The notes beneath the pieces were generated by a model, which made no database searches, was not told the DNA's origin, and saw only the letters and a program-made list of their open reading frames with translations. A stretch of 55,445 nucleotides of DNA, the filler included, from Streblomastix strix (taxonomy: Eukaryota): NCBI GenBank assembly GCA_008636045.1. It is 2 parts of 2 records of this genome, joined end to end, with 100 filler letters (N's around TTAATTAATTAA, not from the genome) between each part and the next. Parts side by side here need not be neighbours in the genome. Positions count along the whole stretch, not along the records: positions 1 to 27,675 come from SNRW01000139.1; 1 more part is not named here. One strand, 5' to 3'. Position numbers and translations under genes: made by a program. This document shows, piece after piece, positions 315 to 44,610 of this stretch; the first letter of the stretch is position 1, and each line of letters starts with the position of its first letter.

Positions 315-2082
315 CTCCATATTCTCATAACTACTAACGCTTGCGCTTTTCAACGCTTGCACGTTTCACCATTTCATCCAATCCATTCACTTATTAACCC
401 AGCATAAATTTAAAAATCAGTTTCAATACATGAAACACTAAACTTCTCCCTTCTATACTACTACATATCATCATCGTACTTCATTGAATGCCTCAGCATC
501 GAGTAATGAAAATGTAGTAATATTTGTACAGTAATGGTCGCCTATATATATAAATTAAAAAATAAAAAATGAAAATAAAAAAGTTTATTTTCAGGAATAG
601 TTTTTTTTTTCATAAATGTAATATCGCTTTTCCTAAATTATTAATAGCCTCCATTATCGATTCGCCCCATCGCCTAAATCTATCACCTCCATTCATCTAG
701 CATCAGATGCATAATTAGTATTCATGCATTTATGGCTCAGGTGGCTATTGTTAAATTTCGGATTCTTCTTCTATAATTTCTTCCTTCTAAATTATTTGTT
801 TTGGTAATTTATAGCTTTTAACTTTTTGTTTATATTTCTCTATTTATTTTACAGCGTATTAATTTTATTGTTTAATAAAAGTGTTTTCAGTCCTAAACCT
901 CATTAATTCTTCCAAGTCGAGTTATGGACTTGTGTAATTAATTTATGCCCATTTTGAACTTTTTGTTTATCCTTTCTTTGTTGGGTTATTTTTTAATTGT
1001 TTTCGGATATCTAACTTCACATTGACTATATGAATCTTCCAATTCTTCTTCTTCTTTATTTCGTTGTTCAGTAAAATTTAAAATTCTTCTTCTTCCACTT
1101 AAACCTATTTTTATTCCTGTTTTTTCTTACCAATGCCCCTGTCTCATGCCTATAAAAGCATCTTATTTTATTATGCCTGAGTCAGTGCCCGCGCAGATTT
1201 TTTTCCATCCTCATAAACTTTAGTTTTATCTTTAACTTGCATAATATATCCATTGTCAAAGTATTCGATTTATGTTCCATTCTCAATCAAATTTTTTTAA
1301 TGCACGAGCGTAATTCATTTTAGTATTTTAAAAATGGTAATATGATTAAAGGAATCGAAAGAAATTAATTATATTTGTCGAAATCAAAAAAATAAATGTC
1401 CAATCTTATGCAAAAAGAACTATAAGACTAAGATAAAATAAAACTGTAAATAATCGATGAAGCTTTCAGTCACCAAAAAATAATACCAGTTGAAGAATCA
1501 ACAACAGAAAGGTCTTTAAATTTCACCATAGCCCCTAGATGAATAATATTCAGCAAGAAATCATAAGAAATATAACATAAATAAATGTAAAGATGTAGAA
1601 CGTACCACGGCATAAGTTGAGCCAGAATAGGCTATATAAAAGCTTGCAGAAGAACAGCCGAGAAATATATATCTTTCACATCCAAATCTTGAAGTCTAAA
1701 ATTTGACATCAACGTCATATGGCTCACCATTACCAAATGATATCGTGGTGATGACTTTATTTTCTCCTTTTGATAACTTTATTAAAATTTTGGCACTGAT
1801 TACTTAGAACGAAGAAGATGATGTTGAAATAGTATTATAGGAAGCAATAACCAAGCCGCATACTTGCATACCAAAAAAAAGCTAAAGAAAAAGGATTAAA
1901 TTAGAGTTCAAAAATTTTAATCAAAAATGTATTCGTAAAAGTAATTGATTATGCGCTATTAAATTCAATACAGAAATTATATCGAGTTAATAATGACTTC
2001 ATTCGTCTAAGTGATACTCAAGAGACTGAAATAAATTAAAATGACTTTTGAATCATTAATAGAAACATTTATTTTTAAATAA

Positions 2083-2700
2083 ATGGACTCAGAAATTTTA
2101 AGTTATTTATAAAATCTCGATGAGGATGATTTAGCTAGCGAACAATAATAGTTCTAAATATTGAAATAACGATAGGTTGAGTAAATGAAGTAAATAAATT
2201 AAAAAATCAATTAATGACAATCATTGATAATAAATCATTAAACTGGTTCGCATAATTGTCATATTTTTTTAAAAAAAGCTATCGGCTTGGTTAATCTAAA
2301 AATTAATCAAACAATTGATGGAATTTAAACCTTATTATGGACAATTTACGTAGAAAAAATTATTAAATCAGGTGGAACAGATAATCAATTGCTTTTAGCT
2401 AATGGAGGAACATCAGACATAGAAGATTTTTTGCTAAAGTAACGTTCAATTGCATATGGTGATTTTACTCTATAAACAACTACAGAAGTTGATGCTAAAT
2501 TAGGTTATATAAAATAATTAGTGGAATTAATAAAGATTCAGATATTAATTTATATTTAGGAACTAATGTATATGGCAACATCATTATAATTGACGGCCAC
2601 ACACTGCTTGTTCCTACATTAGAATATAGTTGGTTATGAAATTCAAAATTAACTAATATAACAACAAGGTTCAGAAATGAATAGCCTTTTCAGAAATAAA
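2083..2700 (+). pseudogene. Degraded fibre-like protein fragment
   Basis: Encodes IIKSGGTDNQLLLANGG, the same motif type as FIKSSKDDTSVLLADGG and NDASILLAGGD in the 5537-8621 fibre gene. Frameshifted. Confidence 0.45.
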
Positions 2701-2702
2701 AA

Positions 2703-4227
2703 ATGAAGGATGTAAATATTGTAGATGGAGATATATTTATAGATAAAGATTATAGTTAATTAAAATTTAATGAATAAGAAATTATCGATGAATTTGCAAT
2801 GAGGTATATACAAAGAGATAAATAATTTGACATTTCTCAAAGTGATATTAAGATTGAAATGTCTTAATAAACATGTACATTTCTCTGTAATTGATTGAAA
2901 AGATTGGAAATTCATATTTATGCATAAAAATTTAAGAAAGAAATTATAATCATTGCATTATTTGAGTTTATTAATAGCTTGATTAAGATAGATTGTTTTG
3001 ATGAGGAGATCATTAATGATGTCAATTAATGAATCAGAACTTTGAATACTCTCACAGAATCTGCTAATTAACACTTCGATTCATAACGAGAAAGATATAA
3101 GAATGAAATGACAAATCCTTATATATTGTAAGAAATCATAAGAGATAATTATCCTGAAAAAAATAAAGAAGTAGTTATGAAATAATTTGATAAAACTAAG
3201 AGTGATGACAATATATCTGATAGAACTTCGTCGATAAGTATGGAATCATAGAGTTCATATAGAAGTCTAAATAAAACTTACATTCATATCTCTAAAATGG
3301 ACTTATGTGATCGATTCACATTTGTTGATATTGAAATGAAGATATACAATTAAGAATATGAATGCGATGATGATATTGTAACTGATATGCTTAAGATAAT
3401 GAGAATACTTAATTAGAAGAATTTCATATTCGTAATGAAACGATATGATTCTACTGTAAAAATATGTACATTTGATATATTATCTGATGATGCAGTTTTG
3501 AAGAAGTTATGTAAAACTAAATGAAATGGATTTAGGAAGAAGAACCTAAAAATTATTGAGTTCATTTCAAGAATTTGCTGGAATATTAAGATTACGAGAC
3601 ATATCATTCATAAGTGATGATAAAGATGTATTTTCCATATTCTAAGGCTTGAAACATAAGTTAGTTAATGAAATCAATATGAATACATTATAATTGAACT
3701 TAGATTTTATTAAAGAAGTAATTGCAGCTTACGACAATTATATTTATGAATATATTCTGAACTGGATTAATTTCATTATATAATATCCTGGTGTTCAATC
3801 ATAAGTTGCTATTGAAATTCGTGGAGTATAAGGAATTTGTAAGAATACATTTACTGATGTATTATGTGATCCAATGGCTAGTTACTCTGCTAAGAATATA
3901 ACTGATATTGATGAAATAACTGGCAATTTCAACTCAGTTATTGAAAATAAATCATTGATTGTACTCAATGAATTGAAGAATTTCACGGAATAATGAGCTT
4001 TAAACAGTAATGCATTGAAATTTGTAATCACAAATTATATATATCAAATCAATAAAAAGTTCGTTGCAAGAAGAGATTCATAGAATGTAACGAATCTTAT
4101 ATTCATATCAAATAACTACTGTTCAGTAAAAATAGATGCTACTGAAAGAAGATATTTAGTTTGTTAAACTCGGGATGCTCAAAGATATAATATTGAACAC
4201 TTCGATAAGATACACCAAGTCATTATA
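2703..4227 (+). pseudogene. SF3 (D5/NrS-1-like, DUF5906-type) helicase, 3'-truncated
   Basis: Motifs YILNWINFIIQYPG, degenerate Walker A GVQGICKN, TGNFNSVIENKSLIVLNE, NLIFISNN and ATERRYLV. Internal TGA stops and frameshifts. Cut off by the MITE at 4228. Confidence 0.85.
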
Positions 4228-5044
4228 TGAGAGTGTCCATTTAGTAGAATCACTTCTTATTTTTTCATTTAAAAATTTTTAAAATAATTTTTTGAACAAT
4301 AACTGAAGTTGCAAATTTTTCGATTTGCCTCCGCTATAAAAACGAGCAAAAAATATAATTTTACTTTTTTGTCTTCATAGAAATAATATTATTATTTGAT
4401 TTTTATTAAAAATATATTTTAAAATTTTTTCAGATACATTTATGGACAATTACGATGTTTTTAGCGGCGTGCGTTCGTGAAAACAGAAAATTTTTATTTT
4501 TTCGATATTTTATTCATCACATTATTTCAAATTCATCAATTATTGTAATTTAATATATTATATATTAAAATACTTATTTTATAATTATTCAATTTAATTT
4601 ATCTCAAAAATCGAACACGTATTTTACAAAAAAATATTTAAATTGAAATTTCGCAAATAAGCATAGCTATAATTATAATTTTTATTGGTCCAATTTTTAA
4701 AAAATAAATATAAATAAAGTATTTTACAAAAAAAATAGTAATTAAGCATGAAATGGGCGGAAAAAAAGAAAAATTAAAAAAAAATCGGTTTTCACGAATG
4801 TAAGCCGCTGAAAATGTAGTTTTTGTCCTTCAATATACCTGAAAAAATTTAAAATAATATTTAAAATAAAAATAAAACAATAAGATTAGCTTTCTGCTGT
4901 TGAAAAAACATGAACATATTTTTTGCTTAATTTTTCAGAGGATGCAAATCTAAATGTTTGCAACTCCAATTTTTGTTTATAAATTTATTTTAAATTTTTT
5001 AAATTTAAAAAAAGTAGTGGGTTGTTTGTGAACGGAAACACCCA
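4228..5044. mobile_element. Non-autonomous MITE, Tc1/mariner-like
   Basis: About 260-bp imperfect inverted arms (4231-4490 vs 4785-5043), for example GTTGCAAA...GCAAAAAATAT...TTCGTGAAAAC on both. Termini GAGTGTCC / GGGTGTTTCC, flanked by TA on both sides. Non-coding AT-rich interior. Confidence 0.7.
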
Positions 5045-5046
5045 TA

Positions 5047-5504
5047 TGCGAAACGCCTACATTATCCGTAAGGTGTAGTAGTTCAATTTTTGAAGAAACT
5101 TTACCACTTGACCCATCAGTATGTCGTTGGCTCTTAGATATCATTAGTGAAGACGAACATATGATAAAGGAATCGGTGCATTTCGTATTACCTGAAAATT
5201 AATTGGTTCGGGTTGTTGCTTATACTTTTGACGTCCCTGGAGTTAAATTTAGTTTGAAGTTCAGGATGAAGGATGTTGTGGTAAGTTCTGCAATGACTTC
5301 ACATAAACATTAAATGAGATATCGATAGGGAACGTTAATATTCTGAAACTCGACGTCTAGAAAATAAATTTATTAAGGGATAGCTATAAAATATGTTTAC
5401 AAAAAATAAGAAAAATAACAAGTATTTTAGATTTGGGAGAAATAGCAAGTAAAATTATTAGTGCAGTATCAAAAGGATTAATGACTGTGTTAAATAAAAT
5501 TTGA
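5047..5504 (+). pseudogene. Viral hypothetical protein, 3' part (paralogue of 48779-49393)
   Basis: CETPTLSVRCSSSIFEETLPLDPSVCRWLLDIISEDEH...EGCCG...VLNKI* aligns with the contig B copy. The 5' part is lost at the MITE and there is one frameshift. Confidence 0.7.
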
Positions 5505-5719
5505 TGTCATTTATAAATTATTTTTATTTTTATAAAATGGACGGAGATTTGCATATGCTTGATGTTGTTTTAAATCATGATTAAGTGCTTTATGTTTCAA
5601 GTAAGTATAACACTATTGGCTTAATTAACGAAGTAAAAAATATTGAAAATTTAATAAATATAATTAATGAAGCGCCTGAACCTTATAATCGTTAAGTAAT
5701 TGATGAAATGTTAGATAAA

Positions 5720-6330
5720 AAATTAAATATTTCTGATTAAATCGATGCTTATTCGAAAACGGAAGATGATGCTCTGTTGTTATTGAAAGTTGATAAATCT
5801 GAGCTCATTTATGCATATTCGAAGACAGAAGATGATGAGATGTAAGCACTAAAATTAAATATTTCTGACTAAATCGATGCATACGCTAAATGGGAGGATG
5901 ATGCTCTGCTGTTGTTGATGGTTGATAAATAAGAGCTCATTGATGCATATTCGAAGATTGAAGCTGATGATTTGCTTGCATTAAAATTAAATATTTCTGA
6001 TTAAATCGATGCATATTCGAAGACTGAAGCCGATGACCTACTCGACGACTAATTAAATAAATCTGATTAAATTGATACTAATTCGAAAACAGAAGATGAT
6101 GTTCTGAAGTTTTTGAAGGCTGATAAATCAGAGCTCTTTGATGCATATTCAAAGACCGAAGATGATGAGACGATAGCATTAAAATTAAATATATCTGATT
6201 AAATTGATGCATACAATGAAACTGAAGTCGATTCCCTGCGCGACGATAAATTAATTATTTCTGATTAAATTGATGCATACTCTTAATAAGAAGATGATGT
6301 TCTGTTGTTATTGAAGGCTGATAAAACAGA
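5720..6330 (+). repeat. Coding tandem repeat array 1 of the fibre gene (~57-63 bp units)
   Basis: Recurrent AAATTAAATATTTCTGATTAAATCGATGCATATTCGAAGAC and GATGATGCTCTGTTGTTATTGAAG units. Confidence 0.9.
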
Positions 6331-6618
6331 ACTGGATAACTATGTCTATTTAACATCAACTCAAACGATAACAGGTTAAAAATAATTCAGAATTGTAAGT
6401 GTTTAATGCATATCGAAATTGAAAAAAAATGATGCGTCTATTCTTCTTGCAGGCGGTGATGATATGTTAGTAAGTTCATTGGTATCATAACCATAACTAT
6501 AAGAAGTACAAGATATTGCTTCAGGCAGATCAAAAGGATATATCTTTGCGACGACGGATGAGATGAATACTTGGATGGAAGATTAGGAAAACGTTACTAA
6601 ATTAGCAATAGGCGATAA

Positions 6619-6620
<2 letters not shown>

Positions 6621-6666: not shown

Positions 6667-6668
<2 letters not shown>

Positions 6669-7059
6669 GGATAAATAAGTCATGGATTATTGGTAGGATG
6701 GCACAGGTATTCGAGCACTAGAAACGGAACTGCCAGAAATGAGCAACATCATGACTATTCTTGGAGCTGCTACAGGAGGAGGCAATGCAATAAATGATTT
6801 ATCAATTGACGGAAACACAATAATACTTGCGAAAAATAGTTCATTAATAAAGACTAACTATGACGAAACTATTACAGGTTAAAAGACGTTTAATACTACT
6901 ATACACTCAGTCGGAATATCAGTATAGAATTTCGATAATAATTCTGTAGTTTGTGCTGGTGGTGGTGTTAAGGTAATATATGACATTAATGCAAGCATTG
7001 ACTTTTCAAATTATTTCAATAAATCATAAATTTATTCATAAACTGAATCAGATTAAACA

Positions 7060-7800
7060 TTAAATCAAAAATTAAATATTTCCTATTAAATTGATTCATA
7101 CACTAAGACATATGATGATGCGCTGCTGTTGTTGAAGTCTGATAAAACAAAGCTAATCGATGCATATTCGAAGACTGAAGCCGATGTTCTACTCGATGAT
7201 AAATTAAATATATCCGATTAAATTGATGCATATACTAAAAGAGAAGATTATGCGTTGTTGTTGTTGAAAGCTGATAAATCAGAGCTCATTGATGCATATT
7301 CGAAGACAGAAAATGATGCTCTGTTATTATTGAAGGCTAATAAAACTTTATTGATTGATGCACATACAAATGGAGAAGCCGATAATCTGCTCAATAATAA
7401 AGCTGATTCAGGAGTTTCATATACTAAAGGAGAGGATGATGCTCTGTTGTTGTTAAAGTTTGATAAAACATAATTGATTGATTCATATACGAAAGGAGAA
7501 ACCGATAATCTGCTCAATAATAAAGCTGATTCAGGAGTTTCATATACTAAAGGAGAGGATGATGCTCTGTTGTTGTTAAAGTCTGATAAAACATAATTGA
7601 TTGATTCATATACGAAAGGAGAAGATGATGCTCTGTTGTTATTGAAGACAGATAAAACATAATTGATTGATTCATACACTAAAGGAGAAACCGATAATCT
7701 GCTCAATAATAAAGCTGATTCAGAAGTTTCATATACTAAAGGAGAAGATGATGCGTTGATATTGTTGAAGGCAAATCAATAAACAACTTATACCAAAACA
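7060..7800 (+). repeat. Coding tandem repeat array 2 of the fibre gene, with near-identical ~123-bp duplications
   Basis: GATAATCTGCTCAATAATAAAGCTGATTCAG(G/A)AGTTTCATATACTAAAGGAGA occurs three times (~7381, ~7504, ~7693). Confidence 0.9.
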
Positions 7801-8668
7801 GAAATTGATTTTTTGATATCATAAGTTGAAGTTGGTGATGTTGATTTAAGTGGATATACGACCTTAGGTACTGCATTGATAATAACAGCAAACAAGATTT
7901 TCAATAATGCTAGTAGATTCATAAGTTCTATCGATGGAATTGCAACAATTACAGGCGCATCGTTTATTAAATCAAATGCAGATGACAGTGTTGTATTATT
8001 TGGAGCTTGTGGAACAAAAACCAATCTCTGAATTTTCCAGTTCAGTTGATGATTCAAACTATGTAAAAAAAAGATGGTAATGTATGAGATATTTAAGGAA
8101 TTTTACGAAAAATGACGTTTGATTATCGATATCCTGAACCAATAGATGATGATTATATGACATTGGGCGCAGTAAAAAGCGAATTCGTTTCATCTATCTA
8201 TAGCGATTCAATTAATGGCATTCTAACAGCAACATAATTTATAAAATCAAGCAAGGATGATACATCGGTTTTATTGGCAGATGGTGGCGACCGATTATTA
8301 CCATCATTTTGAGGGATTGAAGATTTAATATCATCTGCATTTTCTGGTATGAATAGTGCAGTAATAAAATATAAATTTATTAGAATCGGAAATCTGTATA
8401 TATTTTCATTACTTGCTAATGGAAGAAATTATAACGCAAGAACTTTTAATCCTTACTACTTAGTTTAGGATAATGTTGATGATATAACATATATATAATT
8501 TCCGAATAATACTGTCGATAAAAGTTGTTATGTATCGATTATTCATTCAATTGGATTAATTTCCTTAAAATCAATAACAAACACATATATTTAATGTGCA
8601 TCTGCTACATGGTTTAAATGAAACCCTTGAAATTGTTTGGATTAATTATTTATTTTTATTGAATATAA

Positions 8669-10343
8669 ATGTCGAACGTTTATATCGATGAAGGATTGTT
8701 AGATGCTGCTGGTTTATCTGACTTCCCAGAATTATACGCGTATATCAAAGAACGTTATCCTAAACCTATTGGAGAGCTACCGCAACCTGTACCTATTGGA
8801 GACCAAACTCTGCAATAGCAGGTGAAAAATAATAACAATATTATCTATACTTCTGGAGATTCAAATGAAGAGTTCGTACAACCAGTGCCGAATACTATAA
8901 CGAAATTGGATTTGAGTTCATAATTAGAGCGATAAAGTTTCTTAGCATCCAGTGGTTCAGATCCAAAATTAATCGTTAATGGCGATAAAATTATTCTCAT
9001 AGCACCATATGCAACAACAGGTCTATTTCTGAAAGGATATTTATTCAAAAGTTATCCAGCTGAAGTAAGACCAAAATTGGGTGATTAAGAGATTGCATTA
9101 GTTGGAACCGACATATCTAATATATATAATATATTTTGCTGTATCGATTAAAATGGGCCATGTATTATAAGCTCTAGGTAGCTGCCATTAAATACTGTTC
9201 TTATGCATAATATTACATACTATAAGTAATATAAATCATCAAAGAAAATAAATTATGATGAGAATAATGACGGAAAAATAGATATTACGGATATATGGAA
9301 TGTTAATGGAAAAGGATCATTTGAAGCATAATCGTATGTCTATGAAACAGTTAAAAAATAAACAGATTTAATCGAGGCGGGAGTGTAAGGACTAAATAGA
9401 ATTAATTATTTGAACAGTGAAATTAAATTAATGGATGAACTCCCGATATATAAAGCAGATAGAGCAGCATATCTTATTAAAGATGGACCATTAATTTCAT
9501 ATAGTTTTGGAGCAAAATTGGCACAATTAGGTGCTAACTCTGATACGTAATAAACCATATATAAATTATTCTTGATAATCAGAAAAAAAAGTTCTACCAC
9601 CTAATACGAAATATATGCCTATTCATGTCGAATAACAGGAATTTTCTGCTATGTGTTTGTTCAAAGATATTTATGATAAATCGTCTGCTATTTTGATGGT
9701 CGTTAATGGATAATTAAATATGCTAGATTGTGAACTCCAAGGAACGTATATCCTTGATAACTATGCGAACAGCACAAACGCGAACGAATCAGCATGAAAT
9801 TAAGCATTATCAGAAGAACCTGACTCTTTCATCGACGAAGTAATAATAAAGCATGAAAAATAATTGGGTTAATTACCACAACCACAATATACGATAACAA
9901 ATATCTTTAATCAATTTGTAATAAATTATTTTTTACCATCATCAGCATTTAATGCGTTCTATACCGTTGATGAAAGCACTTGCAGAGTATGCGTATTCAA
10001 CCTATATTTTGAATCAAAAGGTTTGCAAGGGAGAATATAAGAAGTTGGTCGTATTCCTGATTCAGTAGTGCCTGCTAATGGTAAAAGTTTGGGCTTCCCT
10101 GCAGCAATATATAGATCTTAGAGCTGAAAATAGAATAATTTTTCTGTGAATTATTATATTGAAAATACATAATTTAAAACGCTATACTTTTAATTATCTG
10201 AATAATAATAACCAATCCCATAAAATTCAGATGATGTTTATAAATATTGTGCAAGTGGAATGAAATATTTGTGAAAAACAGCGCCAGCAACATCAACGAA
10301 AAGCGTTATTTTGGAACGAGAAAATGGTGTAGTTAATGAATGA
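8669..10343 (+). pseudogene. Second putative fibre / receptor-binding-like protein
   Basis: MSNVYIDEGLLDAAGLSDFPELY... with repeated beta-rich modules carrying YPAEVRP and IPDSVVP motifs, reminiscent of the LPxxxRP motif of phage receptor-binding domains. Several TGA stops and frameshifts. Confidence 0.5.
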
Positions 10344-10426
10344 CTTTTAACTGCACCGTGTGCATCGAGTCAAAAACTGTTATGAAAAGCTGTGGCCAAC
10401 TGGACAACTGGCCAATAATTGAGAAA
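10291..10426 (+). repeat. Intergenic iteron repeat, copy 1 (+)
   Basis: ATGAATGACTTTTAACTGCACCGTGTGCATCGAGTCAAAAACTGTTATGAAAAGCTGTGGCCAACTGGACAACTGGCCAATAATTGAGAAA. Confidence 0.9.
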
Positions 10427-10500
10427 CATTAAAAAAATAAAATCATTTATTCAAATCCAAAATAATACATATAAATTTTTATTTTTTTATAAATAAATTT

Positions 10501-10761
10501 ATGGCTACAGACATCTTTTCAAAAATCAAATAATTAGTTTAAAAAGTTTGGAAAGGTCTATAATGGGCTAATGATAACGTTTATAAACCATTCATAAAAC
10601 CATTTGCTAAACCAATACTTGGAACACTAGGTCCTGTTGGCTAAACAATAGATAAAAGTTTAGATGTTGCTAGTTCATTTCTTGATCATAGTTATGGTGC
10701 AGATAAAAATGGATAATTTAGATAAGATTTTGATACTTTAAGAAACGACGAATATTTATGA
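10501..10761 (+). CDS. Small protein with an N-terminal amphipathic helix
   Basis: Open 86-codon frame MATDIFSKIKQLVQKVWKGLQWANDNVYKPFIKPFAKPILGTLGPVG... lying between repeat copies 1 and 2. Confidence 0.65.
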
Positions 10762-10851
10762 TAAAAATTACCCATTGATATACAGAGTCGAAGAATATAA
10801 TTATAGAATCAATGAAAAACATAAGCATTAACGTTTGAAATTATAATTATT

Positions 10852-10950
10852 TTTCATAATTATTGGCCAGTTGGCCAGTTGGCCACAGCTTTTTATAAAA
10901 GTTTCTGACTCAATCCACCCAATCCACTCGGTCCATAAATATTCAATAAA
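10852..10950 (-). repeat. Intergenic iteron repeat, copy 2 (-)
   Basis: TTATTGGCCAGTTGGCCAGTTGGCCACAGCTTTTTATAAAAGTTTCTGACTC followed by variant 9-bp iterons. Confidence 0.9.
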
Positions 10951-11000
10951 TGATTTTTATTACATTGAGTATTTATTTAACTATTTCATTTTTTTATTGA

Positions 11001-12888: not shown

Positions 12889-13272
12889 ATGACATCAATA
12901 TATAATTTACCATATATCACTTTAACATAAAATGACGAAGTTGTAATCGGAGAAAACGCTTAAGTGAGTAGAGTTGGATTTACATTACCATACGCGTTTG
13001 TAAATTCAGATAATTAAAGAAAAATAATATTCAGCTAATGTGATTTTTCAAACTAAGGCTCCAATGAGGGCATTTCTGTTCATAGTTCAATGGTTCAAGA
13101 AGAATAATATTTCGATTAATTTGTTGGCTATTGCAATGAATAACGTGTTTATAAGCCCTACATCTAATACAACCACAACAGATATTTATATGTATGGTTC
13201 CGTTAAAATTAAGAATTATTGGATATAAATTAATAGCTAAAATTTGTTCTTGTGTTGATGCTGGAATATTGA
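12889..13272 (+). CDS. Putative minor capsid (penton, single jelly-roll) protein
   Basis: Intact 127-aa ORF directly after the MCP: LPYAFVNS...VHSSMVQE...FDQFVGYCNE...YVWFR...FVLVLMLEY*. The pattern resembles small Maverick penton proteins. Confidence 0.6.
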
Positions 13273-14684: not shown

Positions 14685-14776
14685 TTGAATGACTTTATAG
14701 TGTTCCGAGTGTTCCGAGTTAGAAATTTTTTTAAAATACTGTGGCCAACTGGACAACTGGCCAATAATTGAGAAAA
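14685..14776 (+). repeat. Intergenic iteron repeat, copy 3 (+)
   Basis: TGAATGACTTTATAGTGTTCCGAGTGTTCCGAGTTAGAAA...CTGTGGCCAACTGGACAACTGGCCAATAATTGAGAAA. Confidence 0.9.
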
Positions 14777-14789
14777 ATAAAGTCGATTA

Positions 14790-15613
14790 ATTATTCAAAT
14801 GTTGATGTTGAACTTATCCGTTTCAGATTAATTTTACAGCTATTCCACTCATTTCGTATTATACCACTAATGCTTATTGTTCAGTTAGTCGTACGTACTC
14901 ATACCATATTGTTTCTTTATCTGATGGTATAGAAAATTAATAGAAAAATTAATTAAATTTTAATCTGTTAAATGAGCCGAAGAACCATAATGAATCAAGA
15001 TTTGATTTAATTGCAGCATCTAAACCAATGATGTCCTATAAGCAAAGGAAGTATATTATTCAGGGCTATCGGTTCTTAAATAGCTTCTTCAAAAGTGTAT
15101 TATTTTTATTTTTTTAATATACTCATTGTATCATCAAATAAAACAATCGTATTAGGAAATTTTAAGTTAAAATTACCTTCTCCACTAGCACCAAAAATAT
15201 TAATTAATATATCATCTTTTGATTGTTCAGTTAGCTCTTTTTATAATTATTTTTCTTGTATCTCATCATACTCTTATTTGCAATCTATCAAATCATTCAG
15301 CATTTAATCCGCTTCGGCATATGGAATAATTTTAGTTAGAATTATAATTAAATCTTTCATCTTTTTTATAAGTTATGTCATTAATTGAGTCGCTCACGTA
15401 TATGAATAGCTTATAGCAATATTTTTTTAATTAGGTCAATTTAATTAGTACTTTGAAGATGTTGTACGTCTTACCACTTCCACGCTAACCTATCAATAAA
15501 TTTACAGAATAATATGTTAAATTTAATTCTTTATTAATATTTGTTTAAATTTCATGTTTATTAACTTTTATTTCTTTTAATATGTTATCTACTTTTTATG
15601 TTAAACTGGCCAT
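14790..15613 (-). pseudogene. A32-like (FtsK-HerA) genome-packaging ATPase
   Basis: MASLTQKVD... with Walker A NLLIGQRGSGKT, Walker B TIVLFDD, then LFKNRQ and FLCLQD. Frameshifted. Confidence 0.85.
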
Positions 15614-15654
15614 TTCTATATAATAATACATATTTTTTATCGGTGAGAAATAGA

Positions 15655-16766
15655 ATGTGAGAATTAACAGAATAAGAAATATAAAGAATAGTCAATGGGG
15701 AAGAAGCAAATGCAAGAAAGGAATTTGAAGCAGAAAGATGCAAAGGTGCAGGTGGGTAATCAGGCGCAGGTGGTGGTGGGTTGATGGAAATTGATGGAAA
15801 GGACGATGATTTCGATTATTATGAATCGCAAGCAGCAAGATAGGACAGAATGAAATCACGAGCAAAAGCGTTTAGTAAGCTACATTTTCATCCTTCAATG
15901 ATTCAAAGAACAAGAATGCATGGAGGTCCATAGTTTAGAGAGGAGGCTTGGGATGTCCTTGCTACACTTGTCGGTTATTTAAACAGAGATATTAAGAAAA
16001 TTAATAGTTTATCGCCTGCCGTTAGTGCTCAAAAATATATAAATGATAAACATTTGTGCAAACGATTTAGTGTATCAGAATAAGATTTAGATGATAATAT
16101 TGCAACACCTGATAATGCGGTTGTTGATGATAAGAAAAAGAATGCAATTTATTTAGTCGATGGTTATACAACAGCTGTAGGATTTGGAGACCCGGAACAT
16201 TAACATAAAAGAAATTGGAAGAAAAAATATTATTCAGATTTTAATAATTTAGAACGAGCAGCATTTGATGCATAATTAAAACAATAAGGAATAAAAGGCG
16301 GTCCTTTCATGAAATGGCTATCAATAACTAAGTTGTATAAAGTAAGAGAAATAAAACTACATAGTTTCAGAGCATTCACCGTCGATGCCAAAAAATTCAT
16401 GGACCAAAATGGAGTCGCATAATTGCAAATGGCTACCAAACAACAAATAATGGAACCTGCTTAGAATACTGTATTTTTTGCTCCTGCTGTAGATATATTT
16501 GAAAGATAAGACGGAAAAATAGACATATATATAATAGAAGCAATAAAACAAATGTAAAATTTGGGGATTATGAATATTTGCCACTTGATAAAAGAGTCAA
16601 TAAAAAAGAACTGCCTACAGTTATTGCTCAACTATATGCTGATAATCAGGTTGATAGTAAGATTTCATAAGCTCTTGGATAAGTTATGTAATATTATGGT
16701 GATATTTTAACACTGAGATAATAAAACATTAATGGTTATAAATTAGAAAAATATAAATTCGTTTGA
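15655..16766 (+). pseudogene. Conserved-looking viral hypothetical protein, divergent from the ATPase
   Basis: Long open frame with a Gly-rich linker and QDLDDNIATPDNAVVDDKKKNAIYLVDGY. A TGA follows the ATG directly. Confidence 0.55.
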
Positions 16767-16800
16767 ACATTATTTATTATTTATATTAATGTTTTTCATT

Positions 16801-16944
16801 TCTGGCCAGTTGTCCAGTTGGCCACAGCTTTTTATAAAAGTTTCTGACTCGGAACACTCGGAACACTCAAAAGTCATTCATAAACGATTCCATTTTCTCG
16901 TGCAAATTTCGACGATTTCGTTGTTGTTTTATGACTCAGAACAC
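16801..16944 (-). repeat. Intergenic iteron repeat, copy 4 (-)
   Basis: TGGCCAGTTGTCCAGTTGGCCACAGCTTTTTATAAAAGTTTCTGACTCGGAACACTCGGAACACTCAAAAGTCATTCAT...TTTTCTCGTGCAAATT...TTTTATGACTC. Confidence 0.9.
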
Positions 16945-17568
16945 CTATCAATCCAGTTTACTTATGTAATAATTAATTATTTTTATCTTGAATAAATGAC
17001 AGATAAATAGGGGGGTAAAACTCATAAAGACGAAGTACGCCTCCGATTGTGCCTCCGAATACGCCACAGATTCAAGCACTACCAGAGCTATTATCATTTA
17101 ATTAATCGCTTAGATAAACATAATAATAAATGACTTAAATGTAAGAATATATTGGAAGGGCACAAGCACGTGATTCTTAGCCAGTACCATAATTTTATAC
17201 TGAATAATTGCAATAGATATTAATGTAGGACTATATTATGTAAATGCAAACATGGAATTTTTAGCTATCACCTGAATTTTAAATGGAGCAACGACAATAA
17301 TAATTAATATAAATGTAGAATTTTATCACTTAGATGCAAGCACGAAATTATTAGCCATCACCAGAATTATCACCTGAACAATAACCCAAACAAGGCGAAG
17401 CTCGCGAAGTGCAGGAGGATTATCAACTGAATTTATGGCCTGAAAAATTAATTCTAAATGTTATTAGAGAATTAATGACGTTATATGACTCTGAAATATA
17501 ATGGAAAATAAATGTAAATGAATTAAGGTTTTAATTTTCATTAATTTTAGATAAAACTGGTTTAAAAA

Positions 17569-20500
17569 ATGGTAGAAACAATAGAGATATAGTTCGAAAT
17601 GTAATATTATAATCAGAACCATTTGCAAAACGAATCAGAAAGGACATTCAATAAGGCCTTCAAAACGAATAAATTATCGGTAATGCTTACGCTAAATAAT
17701 TTATGCAAGAATAGAATAACAAATAGCAAATGAACGCTTAAGACGAATAGAGCTAACAGCACAATTAATAATGGGAGCAAGTATTGGAAGATTAATGAGT
17801 CAAACATGCAAATTTGTTAAAAGAAATTAAAGAATAAAAAATAAACTTTAAGCAAAAATAAAATGGAAATGTGTTCAAAAATGTTATAGATGAAATTAAA
17901 GAATTCAATGAATCATTTAATGACAAAATTTTTAGGCCAATTGATGCTCTTAACGTCCTATAGAGTACGATTATGTTATGTGAGCCACAACTCAAATTAG
18001 AATATGAAAGAAGAATTAATTTTGAGCGAAAACGTATATAAAATTAACATATCAAATATGACCCATTTTATGTTTATACTATCAGCCTAACATAAGAATA
18101 TCATAAAAATGATTTGAAAACAATTGAAGATGTCGATGCTTATTTAGATGAAATAATTAAACGAGAATAGAAATTCGCATTCAAAATTGCATTTGATTTT
18201 GGAGTAGCTATTGAACAAGTCGATGGTTAAGAAAATGATTAATAAATAACATATAAAATTATTCATCCTCTTGAAGCCAGAACGGAGATGAGAGCACTGA
18301 CAACCATACGCACGCACTTAGATTTAGAAAATTATAAAAGATTCGTTAGAAACCACATAATTTAGATGCAAGAGAAAACCATTATGTACACCAAAGAGAA
18401 AATAGTTTGTATACATATGTTCAAACTACCACACACGTGTAGGTCGAACAAAACCATCATTATAGAAACTTATTATAAGGCAAGAGATTCGATATATTGA
18501 CCTTTAGAATAATAATTAAAATTTATGTTTCTTTCTAGCATATTCATTTATTACAATGTCAGATGTTAAAGAGGAACAATCACGTATAGCAGAAGCAAAA
18601 TGATTATTTTAAAGAATCTATGGAAAGATTATAGATGATAATTATTAAGGATTTAATTTTTCAACAGATGCAGATTAATTTATTTAGAACGAAAATTTAA
18701 ATATTAATGTACTCGCTTACGAAGAAACAACGGCAGCACTAACCGAACCATCAGTCAATTCATCAGCCAATTAAGGTAGTTATTATCTATGGAAATAATA
18801 CAGAAGAATCGAATAGAACGAATAAACTAAAAAGTTTAATGTTCTTTTAATAACTGACAAAATTAACGAATAATAAATGGCTCATGTTTTTTTTCATATA
18901 AACGATGTTGAGGCATTAACCGGTTTAAAAGATTGTTCTATTTGTGGTGCGCAGGCATATAAGACCAGAGATTCAAATTTATAACCTAAGCTAAAGAAGT
19001 ACATATAAAAATGTTAAAAAAATGTAGGAAAGATAGTAAAAAAAGTTTATTTAGAAAGATTTCCAAGACCATACGTTCCTCATATTTTGAATAATGTTAG
19101 CTATAAGTATCTTCTGGTTCAAGGTCGAATGGATAAATTCGAACCTACTCAATATTATATTTCATATGAAATTGAAACCGTTAAAATAATCTTTAATGAA
19201 TAATTAGGTGATAATTCAAACCAAATATCAATTCTAGAACGTCTTTCGATTGCAAGTATAATAAAAATAAAAAATAAAACATTAATTAAATTTATTCCAT
19301 TTATTTCGATACGCGAACAAAAGATTTTATTATCATATAGATAAAATAATTGTTAAAAGAATCCATAAAAGTTACTGATTCAAGCAAATATGAATATGAG
19401 ATGATACCACTGCATTACGAGGTGCCAGTAATTGGCTTCAATTCTTCAAAGTTTGATGTCGCATTAATTCTTAAAAATTTATACAGCGATGAATGGTAAA
19501 TAATTAAATATCTTGATAGCGGTTCAAACGCTAAATAAATCAATGTTAAACATAACATAATAGGAATCAAATTGCGATTCATAGATGCGATGATTTATTG
19601 AACAAAAATGAAATTAAAATAATTCATAAAAGATTTCACACCTAAAATAGCGTCAGCAATTCCAACCAAATTATAATTTCCATATGAATTCATCGATTAC
19701 GATAATTATAATAAAATATTGAATATTCCTTAGCCATTTCCGATTGAAGCGTTTAGAAAAACAATTAAAAATAAAAACTTAAGTCAAGAGAAATATTAAA
19801 ATTATTTATCTAATTCTTAGCATTATATAAATGGTTGGATTACCTTCGACACTATAACATTGAAGATACTCGATTAAAGATTCAGCCGTTGAATTACCTA
19901 ATTTATATGTTCTTCAATTATAAGATTGACATGTTGTAGTTCATGTCGATGTCAGCATGTGCTAATGCTATCAAATATGTCCTTGTTTATGGCGACTTCA
20001 AATTGGGTTAAGATTACTCGCCAAAAGATGATTATGCATTGTTCGTTCTAACATAAAATTTTTGAAACATTAAAGTTTAAAATTATCTGGAAAATGATAA
20101 AAAATAGAAATAGTGATACAAGCAACTACATCAAGGAATCAGATTGTGCGTTCTATAGAAAATTATTCCTATCAACAGGGTGCCAATTTTGTAAGGCACG
20201 ATTCACAAGCAAAATTCCTCCAACATTAGATAGAATCAACAACGACAGGGGCCATTCTGCAGATATCATAAAACCGTGCTGCTTATTCTGCAATAAATTT
20301 AAGTCAAATAAGGATGAAAATTTAACAAGATTAGTAATGCAATTAAAAAATTTCTGTCTGACAAAGTCCCTACCTATGACAATAACCGATGAAGAAATTC
20401 ATAAGATTTTACGTTCTGGAATCACTGGTGGATTATCATAACTCATGCATCGCTATAACGTGGCAGGTGAAACTAAATTAAATTAATTAAAATTTATTAA

Positions 20501-21935
20501 TGGAATGGTCATTAGTTAAGACACAGACCACACAATGACCCATCTTTTAACACTAGATTTCAACTGTTAATATCCCAACGTTATGAGCTCAGAGCCGCAT
20601 AAGTTCATCAAATATACAGGAAATAAATTATATATGGCGGGATAAATATTGAATAAAATTACTGATAAATTAGCAGCTATAAATTTAATTTATAATCCTC
20701 TACAATTTAGTGACGTTGAAAGAATGCCGTTATTTATCGCAATTGTTAAAGGACACATCGACGAATAACATATAAACGATTTCATTAATTTTCTTCCGAT
20801 TTTAAGAAACATAAATATTAAGACTGATTTAAAAACGTTAGGTTCATATATATATAATCTACTAATGAAAAATAATATGTATCATGACAAAATTGAACGA
20901 AAATTAACAAATTTATCATCAACTCATGGATAATTTATGTCCCTCAATAATTATTATTTGTGGCTTCTCATTGATGATTTTCATTTCATTATTGACGATA
21001 TTTAATATGTTATAACATTCACGAAGCATGACAGATTCAATCCATTTGTTAAGGAATTTATGAATCAAAGAATATAAGCAATAAAAAGAAAATATAAAGG
21101 AAAATAATAGTTCTATAAATTAGCTATGAACTCAAGCTATGGAAGTGATGGGATGAATTAATAAAAATATTCGCAAACGAAATTGTTGAGCTCTGATAGG
21201 ACATGGTTGTCTCATCTCTAAGGTTCATTCGTTAATGATTAATAATTAAAAGAGGATTTATTTTCAGTTTAATTTAATGCTGAGAGTTGAAACTGCAACA
21301 CTTGCCTACATTCTGCGTATTTCGTGTCAGATAATAGCAAATATTGGTATATAAATTTTATCTATAATTCTATTGTTAAAACTTTCGATATGTACAAGAG
21401 GCACTATATTTGTGGTGATACTGATTCTATGACATGGGCCATCAGTGGCAACTCCAGCGTTGAAGAGGGACATAGACAGAAATTTAATTATTTAATCAAG
21501 GACTAGAAATTTTTCGATGAAAATTATCCTTTTTTCTTCGGATAATTTAAACAATTATTGGGAGTGAGTTATGAGGCAGAAGGAACGGCTTGCATTGCTC
21601 TAGCTCCAAAAATTCATTACATTTATAATCCTCTTCCAAATGAGAATGAAAAGGATTACAATTATTGTTTGAAAGGAATAATATAAAAATAAAATGTTCA
21701 ATTAAATGATGAAGCATTTAAATAATCATTAAATGGTTAATAAATTTGTGCTCAAAATATTATTCTCGGTTAAAGAAATAAATAAATGTCAAAAATATAA
21801 ATAAATAAAGTTGGTTTAACATCAATTCATAATAAAATGGTTGTTCTTGAAAATTAAAGCTGTGCTCCATTCCTGTATTTTAACAGATAACAATTGAGTT
21901 CAGAAAATTATATAATTGCCAATGATGAGCACTGA
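17569..21935 (+). pseudogene. Protein-primed family B DNA polymerase (pPolB)
   Basis: Exonuclease motifs YEIET, VIGFNSSKFD and YNIED; FPYEF; ITGGLS; polymerase motifs LDFNCQYP (A), KLAMNSSYG (B) and GDTDS (C). Frameshifts are present and the start is approximate. Confidence 0.92.
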
Positions 21936-21946
21936 TGATAGGCACT

Positions 21947-22077
21947 AACGAAAAGCATTGAATAAGAGCGATAAATTGGAATAGGTTATGAATGACTTTT
22001 AAGTGTTCCGAGTGTTCCGAGTGTTCCGAGTCAAAAACTTTTATAAAAAGCTATGGCCAACTGGACAACTGGCCAGA
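21947..22077 (+). repeat. Intergenic iteron repeat, copy 5 (+), three iterons
   Basis: ATGAATGACTTTTA(AGTGTTCCG)3AGTCAAAAACTTTTATAAAAAGCTATGGCCAACTGGACAACTGGCCA. Confidence 0.9.
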
Positions 22078-22159
22078 TTGTTAGGTCGGTCTTCCGATCT
22101 CTGCCTGCGGCTGATTTTATTGGTGAATTGAATATAAATTGTTTTTTTTTAAGAAATAA

Positions 22160-23571
22160 ATGTAAAACGAAAATAGTTTATATGAGGAGATACTTAGGAC
22201 TTTTGCTGATGATAAATATCAAAGAGAGGAAAATGATTTTGAAGTATAATAAGATATCGATGATAAAGCGTATAAAGTTCATTATAAAATGACTCTGAGT
22301 TCATAAAAAATATCTTTAAAATTGTAAAGAAGAAAAAATTGATGTTATTGTAGAAAAAGCTGATGAAATAATTATTGGAAAACGAACAATAGCGGGTTGG
22401 TACTGTTATTATATTTCAATTTAATAGCAATTTGTACCAACAAAATAAAATAAATAAAAAAATAAATAAATAGACAAAGATGTTCAAGATTCTGTGATTC
22501 GGTCTAAAGACACATCCTCACCCGTTTAAGGTGGTGATATGGAAAATATGTCCTATTATCCCTTCAAAACAAAATTAAAATTATTTGGAAAAATCAATAA
22601 ATAAAAAATATATTTATAATTAAAAAGATGTATAAGTACAGATGAAAGATTATAAATTAAAACCATTATAAAGACTACAACGACCATATTTCTCTCCAAA
22701 GTTAGGGAGCTGGGATATAGATATAGTCTTTTCATTCGATTAATATTTATAGGAAACCAATGATGAAAATGATGATGCAATCTTTGAATAGAACGAAATA
22801 AGATAGCATACAGAATAGCATTGAAGAAAAACAAATTTATATCTATTTTGCATAAACATTAATACAAAATATTTAGTAGTATATCCATTGATTTATAAAT
22901 CAGCTGCATAAGTAGTTGGGTAATTGTAAAAAATAATAAAAAAATTATTACGTAAATAATATTCGTGGTGATGGAGAGAAAGGATTTAATGGTTCTTATT
23001 TTGCTTTATTTTGTTCTGAGAATTAGATTATTGGATATTTCACTGAATCAAAATTTACTAATTATAATCGAGTTGTCGATTCAGTGATTCGTACAATAAG
23101 GAATGCATTTGGTTATAAAATTAATTAATTTTCAACGAATAAATAAATATAAATAGTCGTTGATATATACAATGATACTCGATATCTAGCGTTTCAAAAT
23201 AAATATAGCTAATATTAAGTTCAATTGTCAAGAGATTTCGAAGGATTGTATATATTTGTTCATAAATGAAGAAATTTGAGCGACAATTAGTAAGATAAAG
23301 ATTACAAGGAATATTATCATTTAAGGTTGGAAATATAATAATTGTACATCTTGATTTCTAAAAAACATAATAAAATTTTATGAAATAAAGAAAAAATTTC
23401 AATTAATTAGCGGAATTCATTAAATATGTGATTGATAATTTCATATACCGATTATTGAATCATTCTTATGAAACTAACATAATAAAAATACCTTAATATT
23501 ATTGTAAAAATGTAAGTGAAAATTAGGAATCACTACCAGAATATTATGCTACAGAATTTAAATTTAGATGA
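22160..23571 (+). pseudogene. Retroviral-like (rve) Maverick integrase
   Basis: RPYFSPKLGSWDID...YLFCININTKYLVVYP...IRGDGEKGF...NRVVDSVIRTIRN...IYNDT. TGA stops and frameshifts. Confidence 0.85.
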
Positions 23572-23621
23572 AACAAAATTTTTAATTATTATTATTTTTT
23601 CAATTTTTTATTTAAATTAAA

Positions 23622-23956
23622 ATGACAGATAATCAAGCCATCAATGATACAACATAATCGGAGTCTGCATAAATGGATCCATAAAATTTAGCGAAATAAG
23701 GAAGATCAAAGAAATATACCGATAAAGAATAGGCAACGATTGCTGCTAGAGAACAGCGCAAAAATGCAAGAAATAGATACAATTAAATTAAACAGATTAT
23801 GTTTCTAAAGTTAATGATATGCAATTATTAATCATTAAAGAACTTAAAAAAAATTATCGAGAATATTAATGATTTGTTAACAATTAACGAATTTATTAAA
23901 AAAATGAACCTGTAAAAAACATTAACGAAGATGCAAATGATGATATAGACGTTTGA
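23622..23956 (+). pseudogene. Small basic putative DNA-binding protein
   Basis: MTDNQAIN...KQGRSKKYTDKEQATIAAREQRKNARNRY, a GRPKKY-like motif followed by a basic helix. Frameshifted in A-runs. Confidence 0.45.
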
Positions 23957-23993
23957 AATAAACAATTTATTTTTATTATTTATTTTTCTCACT

Positions 23994-24164
23994 TCTGGCC
24001 ATTTGTCCAGTTGGCCACAGCTTTTTAAAAAAGTTTCTGACTCGGAACACTTGGAACATTTAAACGTCATTCATTACCTATTACATTTTCTCGTGCAAAT
24101 TCCATAAATTTCATCGATGTTTTATGACTCGGAACACTCGGAACACTATAAACGTTCAATAAAT
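23994..24164 (-). repeat. Intergenic iteron repeat, copy 6 (-), with a second iteron block
   Basis: TGGCCATTTGTCCAGTTGGCCACAGCTTTTTAAAAAAGTTTCTGACTCGGAACACTTGGAACA...TTTTCTCGTGCAAATT...GACTCGGAACACTCGGAACAC. Confidence 0.9.
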
Positions 24165-25149
24165 CATGTTCAATTATTCATGATTTCACTAACAATTTCA
24201 GTGTAGCAACTTCAATAAATTTTAGATTTCCAAATATCAGAAGATTTTTTTATTTAGGCATAATAATATTGAATAATTCGCAAGATGGATAGCTTTTTTA
24301 GATATTTCTGATATGTATAGAGATGCACTTCCTCATATTGACACTATTATTCATAGTGAGTGTCCGAATTCATATAACGATTAGTTAGTTTATTCAATCA
24401 ATATATTTTAGCAAAAAAATTAAATTTTGACAATGGAAAATCTCAATGAAACTTAAAAATTATATTCAAAGGATATTATTGATGCTGTTAAAGTTGAACA
24501 CATATTGCAGAGATGATTTTCTTGGATTAATCAGCAAGAACTGAAAAAAAAAACATACATATAAATTACTTAATTATATTCCGGATAATGATGGATATTT
24601 TGTCTTAAATTGTGTTATTTTTAATATTAAGTAAATTTAATTAAAAAATTATTTTAATGAAAAAAAATCAAAAAATTCGTAAATGAGTGATTCCATCCAG
24701 AACTAATGAGCTTTATTTTTTTATGAAAATAATTTATAAATCATTTTAGAAACAATTTTTAAAAAATTAAAAAATCTTAATTTTGCTTAATTGGAAAAAG
24801 ATGAAAAAAATAAAAATTTCTTTTTTTTTGCCTCAAAGATGCATTATTAGATTAATGTTTATATTTATATTAATATAAATAAATATTTTAGTTATAATTA
24901 TTACAAATTTCTTCAGTTTTTACGGCAAGAGCAAACACAGTCGGCAATTTTTAATTATATTTTTTACTGAATTTTTTTATAAGTGTAAAATTAAGATTTT
25001 TGCATTAATGAAAATTATTAATATAAGTAATTTAAATGTTTTTAATAGAGATAAATTGAAGCAAATTAAATAAATGAAACATTTCCAAATATAATCGAAG
25101 AAAAATAAAATAAAATATATAAAGATAATATAATTTTAAGTACGATAAA

Positions 25150-27775: not shown

Positions 27776-44610
<16,835 letters not shown>

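What the first reader, a model, noticed from the sequence alone, without database searches (positions are those of the whole stretch)
1396..24170. Near-complete Polinton-like virus written in the host's non-standard genetic code
Seen: all viral genes are readable only with TAA/TAG=Gln, and Gln positions within motifs use them (Walker A G-TAG-RGSGKT; CL-Q-D). The set combines pPolB and rve integrase with an SF3 (primase-)helicase, MCP, penton, ATPase and two fibres. I found no separate adenain-type protease gene. Inference: this is a lineage long adapted to, and restricted to, TAR=Gln hosts, and it would be invisible to standard-code annotation.
Basis: partly seen in the sequence, partly recalled or inferred. 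Interest (0 to 1): 0.7.

Follow-up and report, generated by a model that had tools for sequence, protein, structure and literature searches.

The report
Decayed Polinton-like virus using host's code
This is a broken-down integrated copy of an already reported family of virus-like mobile elements, likely in the termite-gut protist Streblomastix strix or a close relative; its genes use TAA/TAG for glutamine as often as the host gene beside them, which likely confines the family to hosts with that code.

Summary
The code observation holds but is published. The capsid gene is 79% identical to an S. strix protein in the confirmed-capsid database of Bellas et al. 2023, who state that S. strix viral elements use table 6. 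New here: TAA/TAG make 146 of 187 viral Gln codons against 538 of 701 in the host gene (P=0.77). They are shared with a second copy that diverged under purifying selection (dN/dS 0.125), so they predate decay. A related capsid gene uses none (0 of 26). The copy is a pseudogene patchwork, not near-complete: stops and frameshifts break capsid, ATPase, polymerase, integrase and helicase, and no paired ends were found. The capsid fold is supported; penton, integrase, fibres and absence of a protease stay unconfirmed. It is most likely a duplicated control site; module shuffling is possible. The scan noted recoded viral genes and repeat-bracketed modules before on other DNA. Mostly known; modest interest.

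The parts
1396..1948 (+). ORF of unknown function; belonging to the element not shown
   Evidence: open for 183 codons under table 6 only; no profile hit above cut-off
2218..2703 (+). fragment that resembles the end part of the repeat (fibre-like) proteins, by eye
   Evidence: translation; no profile hit
2700..4230 (+). SF3 (D5-like) helicase, middle fragment, broken; Walker A degenerate (GVQGICKNT)
   Evidence: PF19263 E 1e-4 under cut-off; PHROG DNA primase E 1e-4; 34-40% identical to the second helicase; codons
4251..5019 (.). insert bounded by 250-bp inverted arms (75% alike), unrelated to the internal repeat unit; lies where the helicase breaks off
5047..5500 (+). conserved gene of unknown function directly before the first repeat protein; second copy at 48934-49464
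   Evidence: 77% DNA identity between the two copies; same order in S. strix model P0045
5540..6620 (+). repeat protein 1 (22-residue repeats), fibre-like by inference
   Evidence: 66/132-bp tandem arrays; P0045 repeats hit phrog_5004, unknown function, E 5e-14
6667..8620 (+). repeat protein 2, broken near its end, fibre-like by inference
8669..10150 (+). two conserved genes (8669 and 9615) upstream of the capsid gene; possibly virion proteins
   Evidence: fused to the capsid in 17 and 13 of 247 capsid-bearing database proteins; Atlas lead only, 0.89
10303..10448 (+). internal repeat unit a
10501..10761 (+). 86-residue protein with an amphipathic-looking N-terminus, between units a and b
   Evidence: linked to the capsid in 19 of 247 database proteins; function untested
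10838..10973 (-). internal repeat unit b, 37 bp before the capsid start
   Evidence: its distal half is kept in L001
11010..12718 (+). major capsid protein gene (double jelly roll), pseudogene: two TGA and one frame change
   Evidence: 79% identity over 501 residues to KAA6397366, which is in the published confirmed-MCP set; fold search; Atlas; breaks
12889..13272 (+). 127-residue open frame right after the capsid gene; penton candidate by position only
   Evidence: model pLDDT 32, best Z 2.8; its first 31 residues follow the capsid end in S. strix model P0130
13374..14688 (+). three small genes, the middle one KilA-N-like and broken
   Evidence: PF04383 E 0.037, under cut-off; translations
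14685..14796 (+). internal repeat unit c
14808..15630 (-). packaging-type ATPase, in three frames
   Evidence: Walker A with TAG; PHROG terminase E 1e-4; A32 type is recalled, not tested
15784..16766 (+). gene of unknown function, frame change near 16525
   Evidence: no profile hit; other copies differ by an indel at 16525
16777..16913 (-). internal repeat unit d
16992..21935 (+). pPolB module: Gln-rich ORF, then a broken protein-primed B polymerase with an endonuclease VII-like insert
   Evidence: PF03175 E 4e-6; phrog_1907 E 2e-9, phrog_1035 E 2e-4; motifs DFNCQYP, KLAMNSSYG, CGDTDS
21954..22080 (+). internal repeat unit e, 19 bp after the polymerase end
22450..23300 (+). probable rve-type integrase, broken; acidic motifs WDID, RGDGE, RVVDSVIRT
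   Evidence: motifs by eye, family assignment recalled; no profile hit
23622..23959 (+). small gene ending at unit f; an inverted 79% copy of part of it lies at 174-298
23962..24154 (-). internal repeat unit f plus a partial second copy of its 9-bp repeats
27654..43913 (-). host gene, 5419 codons, ubiquitin-specific protease domain; gives the host code and Gln codon use
   Evidence: PF00443 E 3e-21; TAR 538 of 701 Gln codons
45615..49464 (.). second decayed fragment: unit g (+), primase-helicase (-, 45760-48114), unit h (-, 48275-48416), then the 5047-type gene
   Evidence: PF19263 E 5e-10

Best explanation
This is a decayed, integrated copy of the Metamonada-group Maverick/Polinton-like virus family, likely of Streblomastix strix or a close relative, and its genes already used TAA/TAG for glutamine while they were under purifying selection. 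Shown: capsid identity, TAR=Gln use at host level, sharing of TAR sites between two copies, breaks in this copy. Inferred: the active element copied itself with a protein-primed B polymerase, integrated with an rve-type integrase and packaged its DNA with the ATPase into jelly-roll capsids. Inferred: in a host where CAR-to-TAR changes are silent, AT-biased mutation turned about three quarters of its Gln codons into TAA/TAG; that would act as a one-way lock, since a standard-code host would read 14 or more stops in the capsid gene alone. The repeated non-coding unit between the modules is most likely a duplicated control site (transcription boundary or protein-binding array) of the active virus that can also serve as a recombination point (about 55% for this reading of the unit).
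For: 45 of 46 hits to the capsid fragment are S. strix proteins, up to 89% identical. KAA6397366 is in the published confirmed-MCP set, cluster MMPC_40, with 820 hits listed for S. strix. The paper states that S. strix elements use the host table. The five best fold matches are double-jelly-roll capsids, Z 5.2-6.2; Atlas neighbours 0.96-0.98 include Parabasalia and Preplasmiviricota clusters. Window against L001, 389 codons: 14 of 19 shared Gln sites are TAR in both, pS 0.25, pN 0.037, dN/dS 0.125. TAR share 146 of 187 viral against 538 of 701 host, Fisher P 0.77. The 9 S. strix capsids form one branch (SH-aLRT 100, quick tree of 41 rows) among unnamed metagenomic relatives. Upstream gene order recurs in other S. 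strix gene models. Relatives cover 30 of 30 bins of 5000-23500 in 4 of 4 runs, 2 studies. The 22-mer core of the unit has 6 matches, 0 in 100 shuffles.
Against: The capsid model is poor (pLDDT 40) and its Z values are under 8, with carbohydrate-binding modules close behind (5.1). No sequence profile hits the capsid (0 of 60 members in Pfam; nothing meaningful in PDB). Penton, integrase and fibres have no profile or fold support. No second copy was seen that links capsid to polymerase, ATPase, integrase or helicase: 0 of 247 capsid-bearing proteins reach those genes and no laid contig spans the stretch. No paired ends were found. The selection test rests on one pair of copies and one gene. Only one standard-code relative was checked at DNA level (L002). 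Table 3 lists many places where nearly all laid depth differs from the window, which fits private decay but also assembly error.
Confidence: 0.85

Rival explanations
1. TAA/TAG arose only after insertion, by C-to-T decay of a standard-code virus in an AT-biased genome.
For: The locus is clearly decayed and the TAR share equals the mutational background.
Against: 14 of 19 shared Gln sites are TAR in both copies although the copies differ at only 3.7% of non-synonymous sites and dN/dS is 0.125. L001 holds 390 open codons with 15 TAR and departs at 1 of 184 conserved columns. Decay able to convert 78% of Gln codons would have erased the proteins.
Confidence: 0.04
2. The stretch is a composite: several mobile modules or nested elements, each bounded by a pair of the repeated units (small gene; ATPase plus unknown; integrase; primase-helicase), piled up or shuffled by recombination at the unit.
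For: Strict alternation of six units (chance 1 in 32). The second primase-helicase is bracketed by an inward-facing pair that are each other's best match, 71%. The helicase lies in opposite orientation to the 5047-type gene at the two loci. L001 joins the capsid module to unrelated DNA inside unit b. Contig joints fall at the units: 10326/10934 and 16881/21948 on opposite strands, 14669 to 10335. Repeat-bracketed replicase modules are described in bioRxiv 10.64898/2026.10.13.758929 (section 13 read).
Against: Partners a-b, c-d and e-f are not each other's best match (62, 69, 75%; d-f is 82%). Unit b keeps its own variant before the capsid in L001, which suggests fixed positions. The two helicases are only 34-40% identical, so their orientation is not a clean inversion test. 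Joints at repeats also arise from laying short contigs on the wrong copy. No target duplications were looked for at each unit.
Confidence: 0.25
3. The breaks are assembly artefacts of a collapsed high-copy repeat, and the real locus is intact.
For: Bellas et al. report such false stops in repeated viral elements. 42,551 contigs of run X1 lie on this stretch, most 90-99% alike.
Against: Contigs at depth 12-30 match the window with 0-3 differences and no gap over 13449-14044 and 19088-19441, where I read frame changes by eye (table 8). X1 may be the source sample, and most breaks were not covered by listed contigs.
Confidence: 0.1
4. The repeated unit is a replication origin or a leftover of terminal repeats rather than a transcription signal.
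For: Layout of 9-bp direct repeats, an AT-rich palindrome and a TGGCCA-N10-TGGCCA pair recalls iteron origins (recalled; lead also in note e1-9810094).
Against: Six internal copies are more than a linear protein-primed genome needs (from general knowledge). A TTCAAA whose complement holds TGA lies 25-39 bp beyond the core in 5 of 6 units and ends a reading frame at c, d, f and g, tying the unit to gene ends. Folding is not clearly better than shuffles (z -0.1 to -2.2).
Confidence: 0.15

Closest known systems
S. strix endogenous viral elements, Metamonada group, MCP cluster MMPC_40 (Bellas et al. 2023, PMC10120064; passages, section 6 and supplement rows seen)
   Same: Same capsid family (79% identity to a listed member), same use of table 6, high copy number.
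   Different: In the passages seen the paper gives only the capsid and the code for S. strix. Gene map, codon-level test and the internal repeats are not there. Supplement PDFs gave no hit for the species name and figures cannot be seen; figshare data were not seen.
Trichomonas vaginalis, Tritrichomonas foetus and Entamoeba histolytica Maverick-Polintons (same MCP cluster)
   Same: About 30-33% capsid identity to S. strix proteins in the paper's table; still unplaced as a group (bioRxiv 10.64898/2026.06.19.733378, passages).
   Different: Standard-code hosts (own knowledge); their gene maps were not compared here.
Tlr elements of Tetrahymena thermophila (PMC4028283, passages)
   Same: Capsid, ATPase and rve integrase without a protease; the host is a TAR=Gln ciliate (own knowledge).
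   Different: Tlr has a superfamily 1 helicase in place of pPolB and a 227-codon penton frame; this element has pPolB and an SF3 helicase.
Animal group 1 Maverick-Polintons (Polintoviricetes)
   Same: pPolB, rve-type integrase, packaging ATPase, double-jelly-roll capsid.
   Different: They carry an adenovirus-type protease and terminal inverted repeats; neither was found here, and Metamonada capsids do not group with them.
Repeat-bracketed replicase modules and mobile AEP-SF3 genes of Polisuviricotina (bioRxiv 10.64898/2026.10.13.758929, passages and section 13)
   Same: Internal repeats bracketing a replication module; two replicase classes in one element.
   Different: There one module is bracketed. 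Here one unit recurs six times between capsid, ATPase, polymerase and integrase modules alike.

Membership tests
Metamonada-group Maverick/PLV (MMPC_40) | capsid protein in the published cluster | tested here: met
   79% identity over 501 residues to KAA6397366, listed under MMPC_40
Metamonada-group Maverick/PLV (MMPC_40), S. strix branch | genes in translation table 6 | tested here: met
Maverick/Polinton | double-jelly-roll major capsid protein | tested here: met
   own model weak (pLDDT 40; top five matches are such capsids, Z 5.2-6.2, rmsd 5.1-7.0, 145-192 aligned); Atlas 0.96-0.98; published confirmation of the 79% identical paralogue
Maverick/Polinton | [quoted passage not shown] | tested here: met
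   PF03175 above cut-off, motifs A, B, C; gene broken
Maverick/Polinton | rve (retroviral-type) integrase | tested here: inconclusive
   acidic motifs by eye only; no hit in Pfam, PHROGs, NCBIfam, PDB or plasmids
Maverick/Polinton | A32/FtsK-like packaging ATPase | tested here: inconclusive
   Walker A and B and weak P-loop hits; subfamily recalled, not tested
Maverick/Polinton | single-jelly-roll penton | tested here: inconclusive
   12889 frame: model pLDDT 32, best Z 2.8, no homologue in two searches; position after the capsid recurs in P0130
Maverick/Polinton (animal group 1) | adenovirus-type cysteine protease | tested here: inconclusive
   no profile hit and no convincing motif in six frames of 1-27600 (motifs recalled); several genes unassigned and broken
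Maverick/Polinton | terminal inverted repeats and target duplication | tested here: inconclusive
   no collinear pair between 1-6000 and 21900-27650; best match 126 bp at 79% is part of a gene; the copy is decayed and its left end may lie outside the window
Maverick/Polinton | virions or excision | not testable with these tools
   needs wet-lab work

The most novel reading that the evidence does not exclude
The S. strix virus family is built of gene modules (capsid, ATPase, polymerase, integrase, primase-helicase) separated by one 110-150 bp unit in alternating orientation, and recombination at this unit inverts, swaps or releases modules. It would be a cassette-shuffling Polinton-like virus locked into its host by a recoded genome, and a concrete mechanism for the replicase and capsid mosaicism of these viruses.
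Probability: 0.2. Interest if true: 0.65.

Novelty: already known. Interest (0 to 1): 0.3.

Why it matters
The recoding itself is published. The added value is a codon-level test that the virus was under selection while written in the host's code, and that neutral AT-biased drift is enough to explain it; such drift would close the route back to standard-code hosts. The locus also gives a readable gene map for a group that a 2026 preprint still cannot place. If the alternating repeat unit proves to be a recombination site, it would offer a testable mechanism for module exchange in Polinton-like viruses.

Tried and rejected
No whole genome is held for this window, so other copies could not be mapped. 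IMG/VR: no relative with the capsid alignment, three single relatives or the 22-mer; a deeper alignment was too divergent for that tool. GTDB: one match to the 22-mer in an Acidobacteriota contig, a short tandem array, taken as chance. No RNA holder listed. Rfam: 0 matches. Capsid: no Pfam family for 60 of 60 aligned members, DUF4106 included; no meaningful PDB sequence hit. 12889 protein: no homologue at near or longer lengths, unusable model. Atlas structure rows for the 8669 homologue had TM under 0.3. The careful tree did not finish; the quick tree is quoted, 41 rows chosen by me as full-length from 217. The second half (self tblastx) gave inflated sum statistics and was not used. 174-298 / 23785-23908 was considered as a terminal repeat and rejected: neighbouring matches are not collinear. 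Literature: six searches; only PMC10120064 holds both 'Streblomastix' and 'Polinton'; none of the listings pointed to a description of the internal repeat unit in this family; subscription papers are not covered.
Full report
Host and code. The window is about 26% G+C. Table 11 gives 10 frames of 80 codons or more, none over 152. Table 6 opens a 5419-codon gene at 27654-43913 with a ubiquitin-protease domain. 45 of 46 database hits to the capsid fragment are named S. strix, an oxymonad. The host is therefore inferred to be S. strix or a close relative. No genome was held for the window.

The observation. The quoted codons are right. Under table 11 the longest stop-free frame in 19 gene spans is 20-129 codons, under table 6 89-465. 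But the copy is not near-complete in a working sense. The capsid gene (11010-12718) has two TGA and one frame change, and polymerase, ATPase, integrase and helicase each lie in several frames. No collinear terminal repeats were found. The helicase at 2.7-4.2 kb is a middle piece that stops at an unrelated 770-bp insert with inverted arms. Some contigs at depth 12-30 match the window almost exactly over places where I read frame changes, so at least some breaks look real; the run may be the source sample.

Capsid. The product is 79% identical over 501 residues to KAA6397366. That accession is in the confirmed capsid set of Bellas et al. 2023, cluster MMPC_40, which also holds Trichomonas, Tritrichomonas and Entamoeba hits; 820 hits are listed for S. 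strix. My model of this paralogue is weak (pLDDT 40), yet its five best matches among 48,161 chains are double-jelly-roll capsids (Z 5.2-6.2; under the level the tool calls reliable). Atlas neighbours agree. A profile search found 576 relatives. In a quick tree of 41 rows the 9 S. strix proteins form one branch among unnamed metagenomic capsids.

Other genes. pPolB is confirmed by Pfam and motifs and carries an endonuclease VII-like insert. The helicase is SF3/D5-like. The ATPase has Walker A and B. The integrase rests on motifs read by eye; its third acidic position appears to be Asp where rve integrases usually have Glu (recalled). The 127-residue frame at 12889 follows the capsid in one other S. 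strix model, but neither homologues nor a usable fold were obtained. The repeat proteins are fibre-like by inference only. No protease was seen, which is inconclusive in a broken copy and would not be unusual: most PLV groups and Tlr lack it. Genes upstream of the capsid recur in the same order in fused S. strix models (19, 17, 13, 7, 4 and 1 of 247 proteins for six upstream genes). Linkage of capsid to polymerase, ATPase, integrase or helicase in other copies could not be tested. Relatives of all parts of 5000-23500 exist in four runs of two studies.

Was the code used by the active virus? Yes, as far as one gene pair shows. L001 holds the first 390 codons of a capsid gene, open, 91.6% identical in DNA. 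Of 19 sites with Gln in both copies, 14 are TAR in both, 3 CAR in both, 2 mixed; 3 more sites have Gln in one copy only. dN/dS is 0.125 at pS 0.25. 10 of the 21 TAR codons face CAA/CAG Gln in L002, whose capsid gene has 0 TAR among 26 Gln codons and ends in TAA. Pooled over 13 viral frames that I chose as readable, TAR is 146 of 187, against 538 of 701 in the host gene without its poly-Gln tail (P 0.77). Third-position T share (0.76) and non-coding DNA (0.74-0.75) are the same. So the virus reached the host's mutational equilibrium; selection for TAR is not needed. The lock-in to TAR=Gln hosts is an inference. The paper already states that S. strix elements use this table and reads it as long association.

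The repeat unit. A non-coding unit of 110-150 bp occurs at 10303 (+), 10973 (-), 14685 (+), 16913 (-), 21954 (+) and 24107 (-), and in a variant form at 45615 (+) and 48416 (-). It holds two or three 9-bp direct repeats, an AT-rich palindrome and TGGCCA-N10-TGGCCA. The 22-mer core has 6 matches and none in 100 shuffles. Every copy lies at a boundary between genes. Copies are 46-82% alike, and only g and h are each other's best match. Unit b keeps its own variant in L001, where similarity to the window starts inside it. A few contig joints fall at the units but cannot be told from mislaid repeats. I favour a duplicated control site at fixed positions; shuffling of modules is the bolder reading. 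The nearest published case is repeat-bracketed replicase modules. Earlier notes of this scan describe similar units in other genomes; they are unchecked leads.

Second fragment. At 45.6-49.5 kb a primase-helicase, 34-40% identical to the first helicase, lies between units g and h, next to a 77% identical copy of the 5047 gene and the first codons of the first repeat protein. A helicase beside that gene at both loci suggests it belongs to the element's left part, though the two helicases are different subtypes.

Papers seen. PMC10120064: passages, section 6, rows of supplement 2 (cut when stored; figures and figshare data not seen, and they may hold S. strix gene maps). bioRxiv 10.64898/2026.06.19.733378: passages. 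bioRxiv 10.64898/2026.10.13.758929: passages and section 13; preprint supplements are closed. PMC4028283: passages. Others: search listings only.

Verdict. Real, correctly recognised, but a decayed copy of a family whose recoding is already published. Interest 0.3; the alternating repeat unit is the part worth following.

Noticed in passing
window 10303-24154 and 45615-48416: One non-coding unit of 110-150 bp, six times in alternating orientation between viral gene modules and twice around a second helicase.
   Followed up: partly
window 45615-49464: Second decayed fragment of the same family: primase-helicase between inward-facing repeat units, then the 5047-type gene.
   Followed up: partly
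window 10501-10761: 86-residue protein with an amphipathic-looking N-terminus, conserved just before the capsid gene in many copies; recalls membrane-penetration proteins such as adenovirus protein VI (recalled, untested).
   Followed up: partly
window 20085-20340: Endonuclease VII-like zinc-binding insert inside the pPolB region (phrog_1035, E 2e-4).
   Followed up: partly
window 4251-5019: Insert with 250-bp inverted arms, 75% alike, at the point where the first helicase breaks off; possibly a small non-autonomous transposon.
   Followed up: partly
window 23057-23110: The probable integrase has Asp at the position where rve integrases usually have the catalytic Glu (by eye, recalled).
   Followed up: no
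window 27654-43913: Host gene of 5419 codons without apparent introns, with a ubiquitin-specific protease domain and a poly-Gln tail running into an assembly gap.
   Followed up: partly
window 25333-25779: Fragment reading like the C-terminal part of a PIF1/Helitron helicase (by eye, recalled; no Pfam hit at 0.01).
   Followed up: no
window 174-298 and 700-1300: Inverted partial copy of the 23622 gene and further broken minus-strand frames left of 1396: perhaps another viral remnant.
   Followed up: partly
L001 700-1500 (minus strand): Frame that reads like a bacterial-type glycoside hydrolase but contains TAA/TAG as Gln, next to the capsid gene; possibly a gene taken up by the host from bacteria (by eye).
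   Followed up: no
P0131: A capsid relative is filed under an Alphaproteobacteria genome bin on a 2.9-kb contig, probably a misbinned protist-virus fragment.
   Followed up: no
window 6621-6666: A (TA)23 run sits at the junction of the two repeat-protein genes.
   Followed up: no
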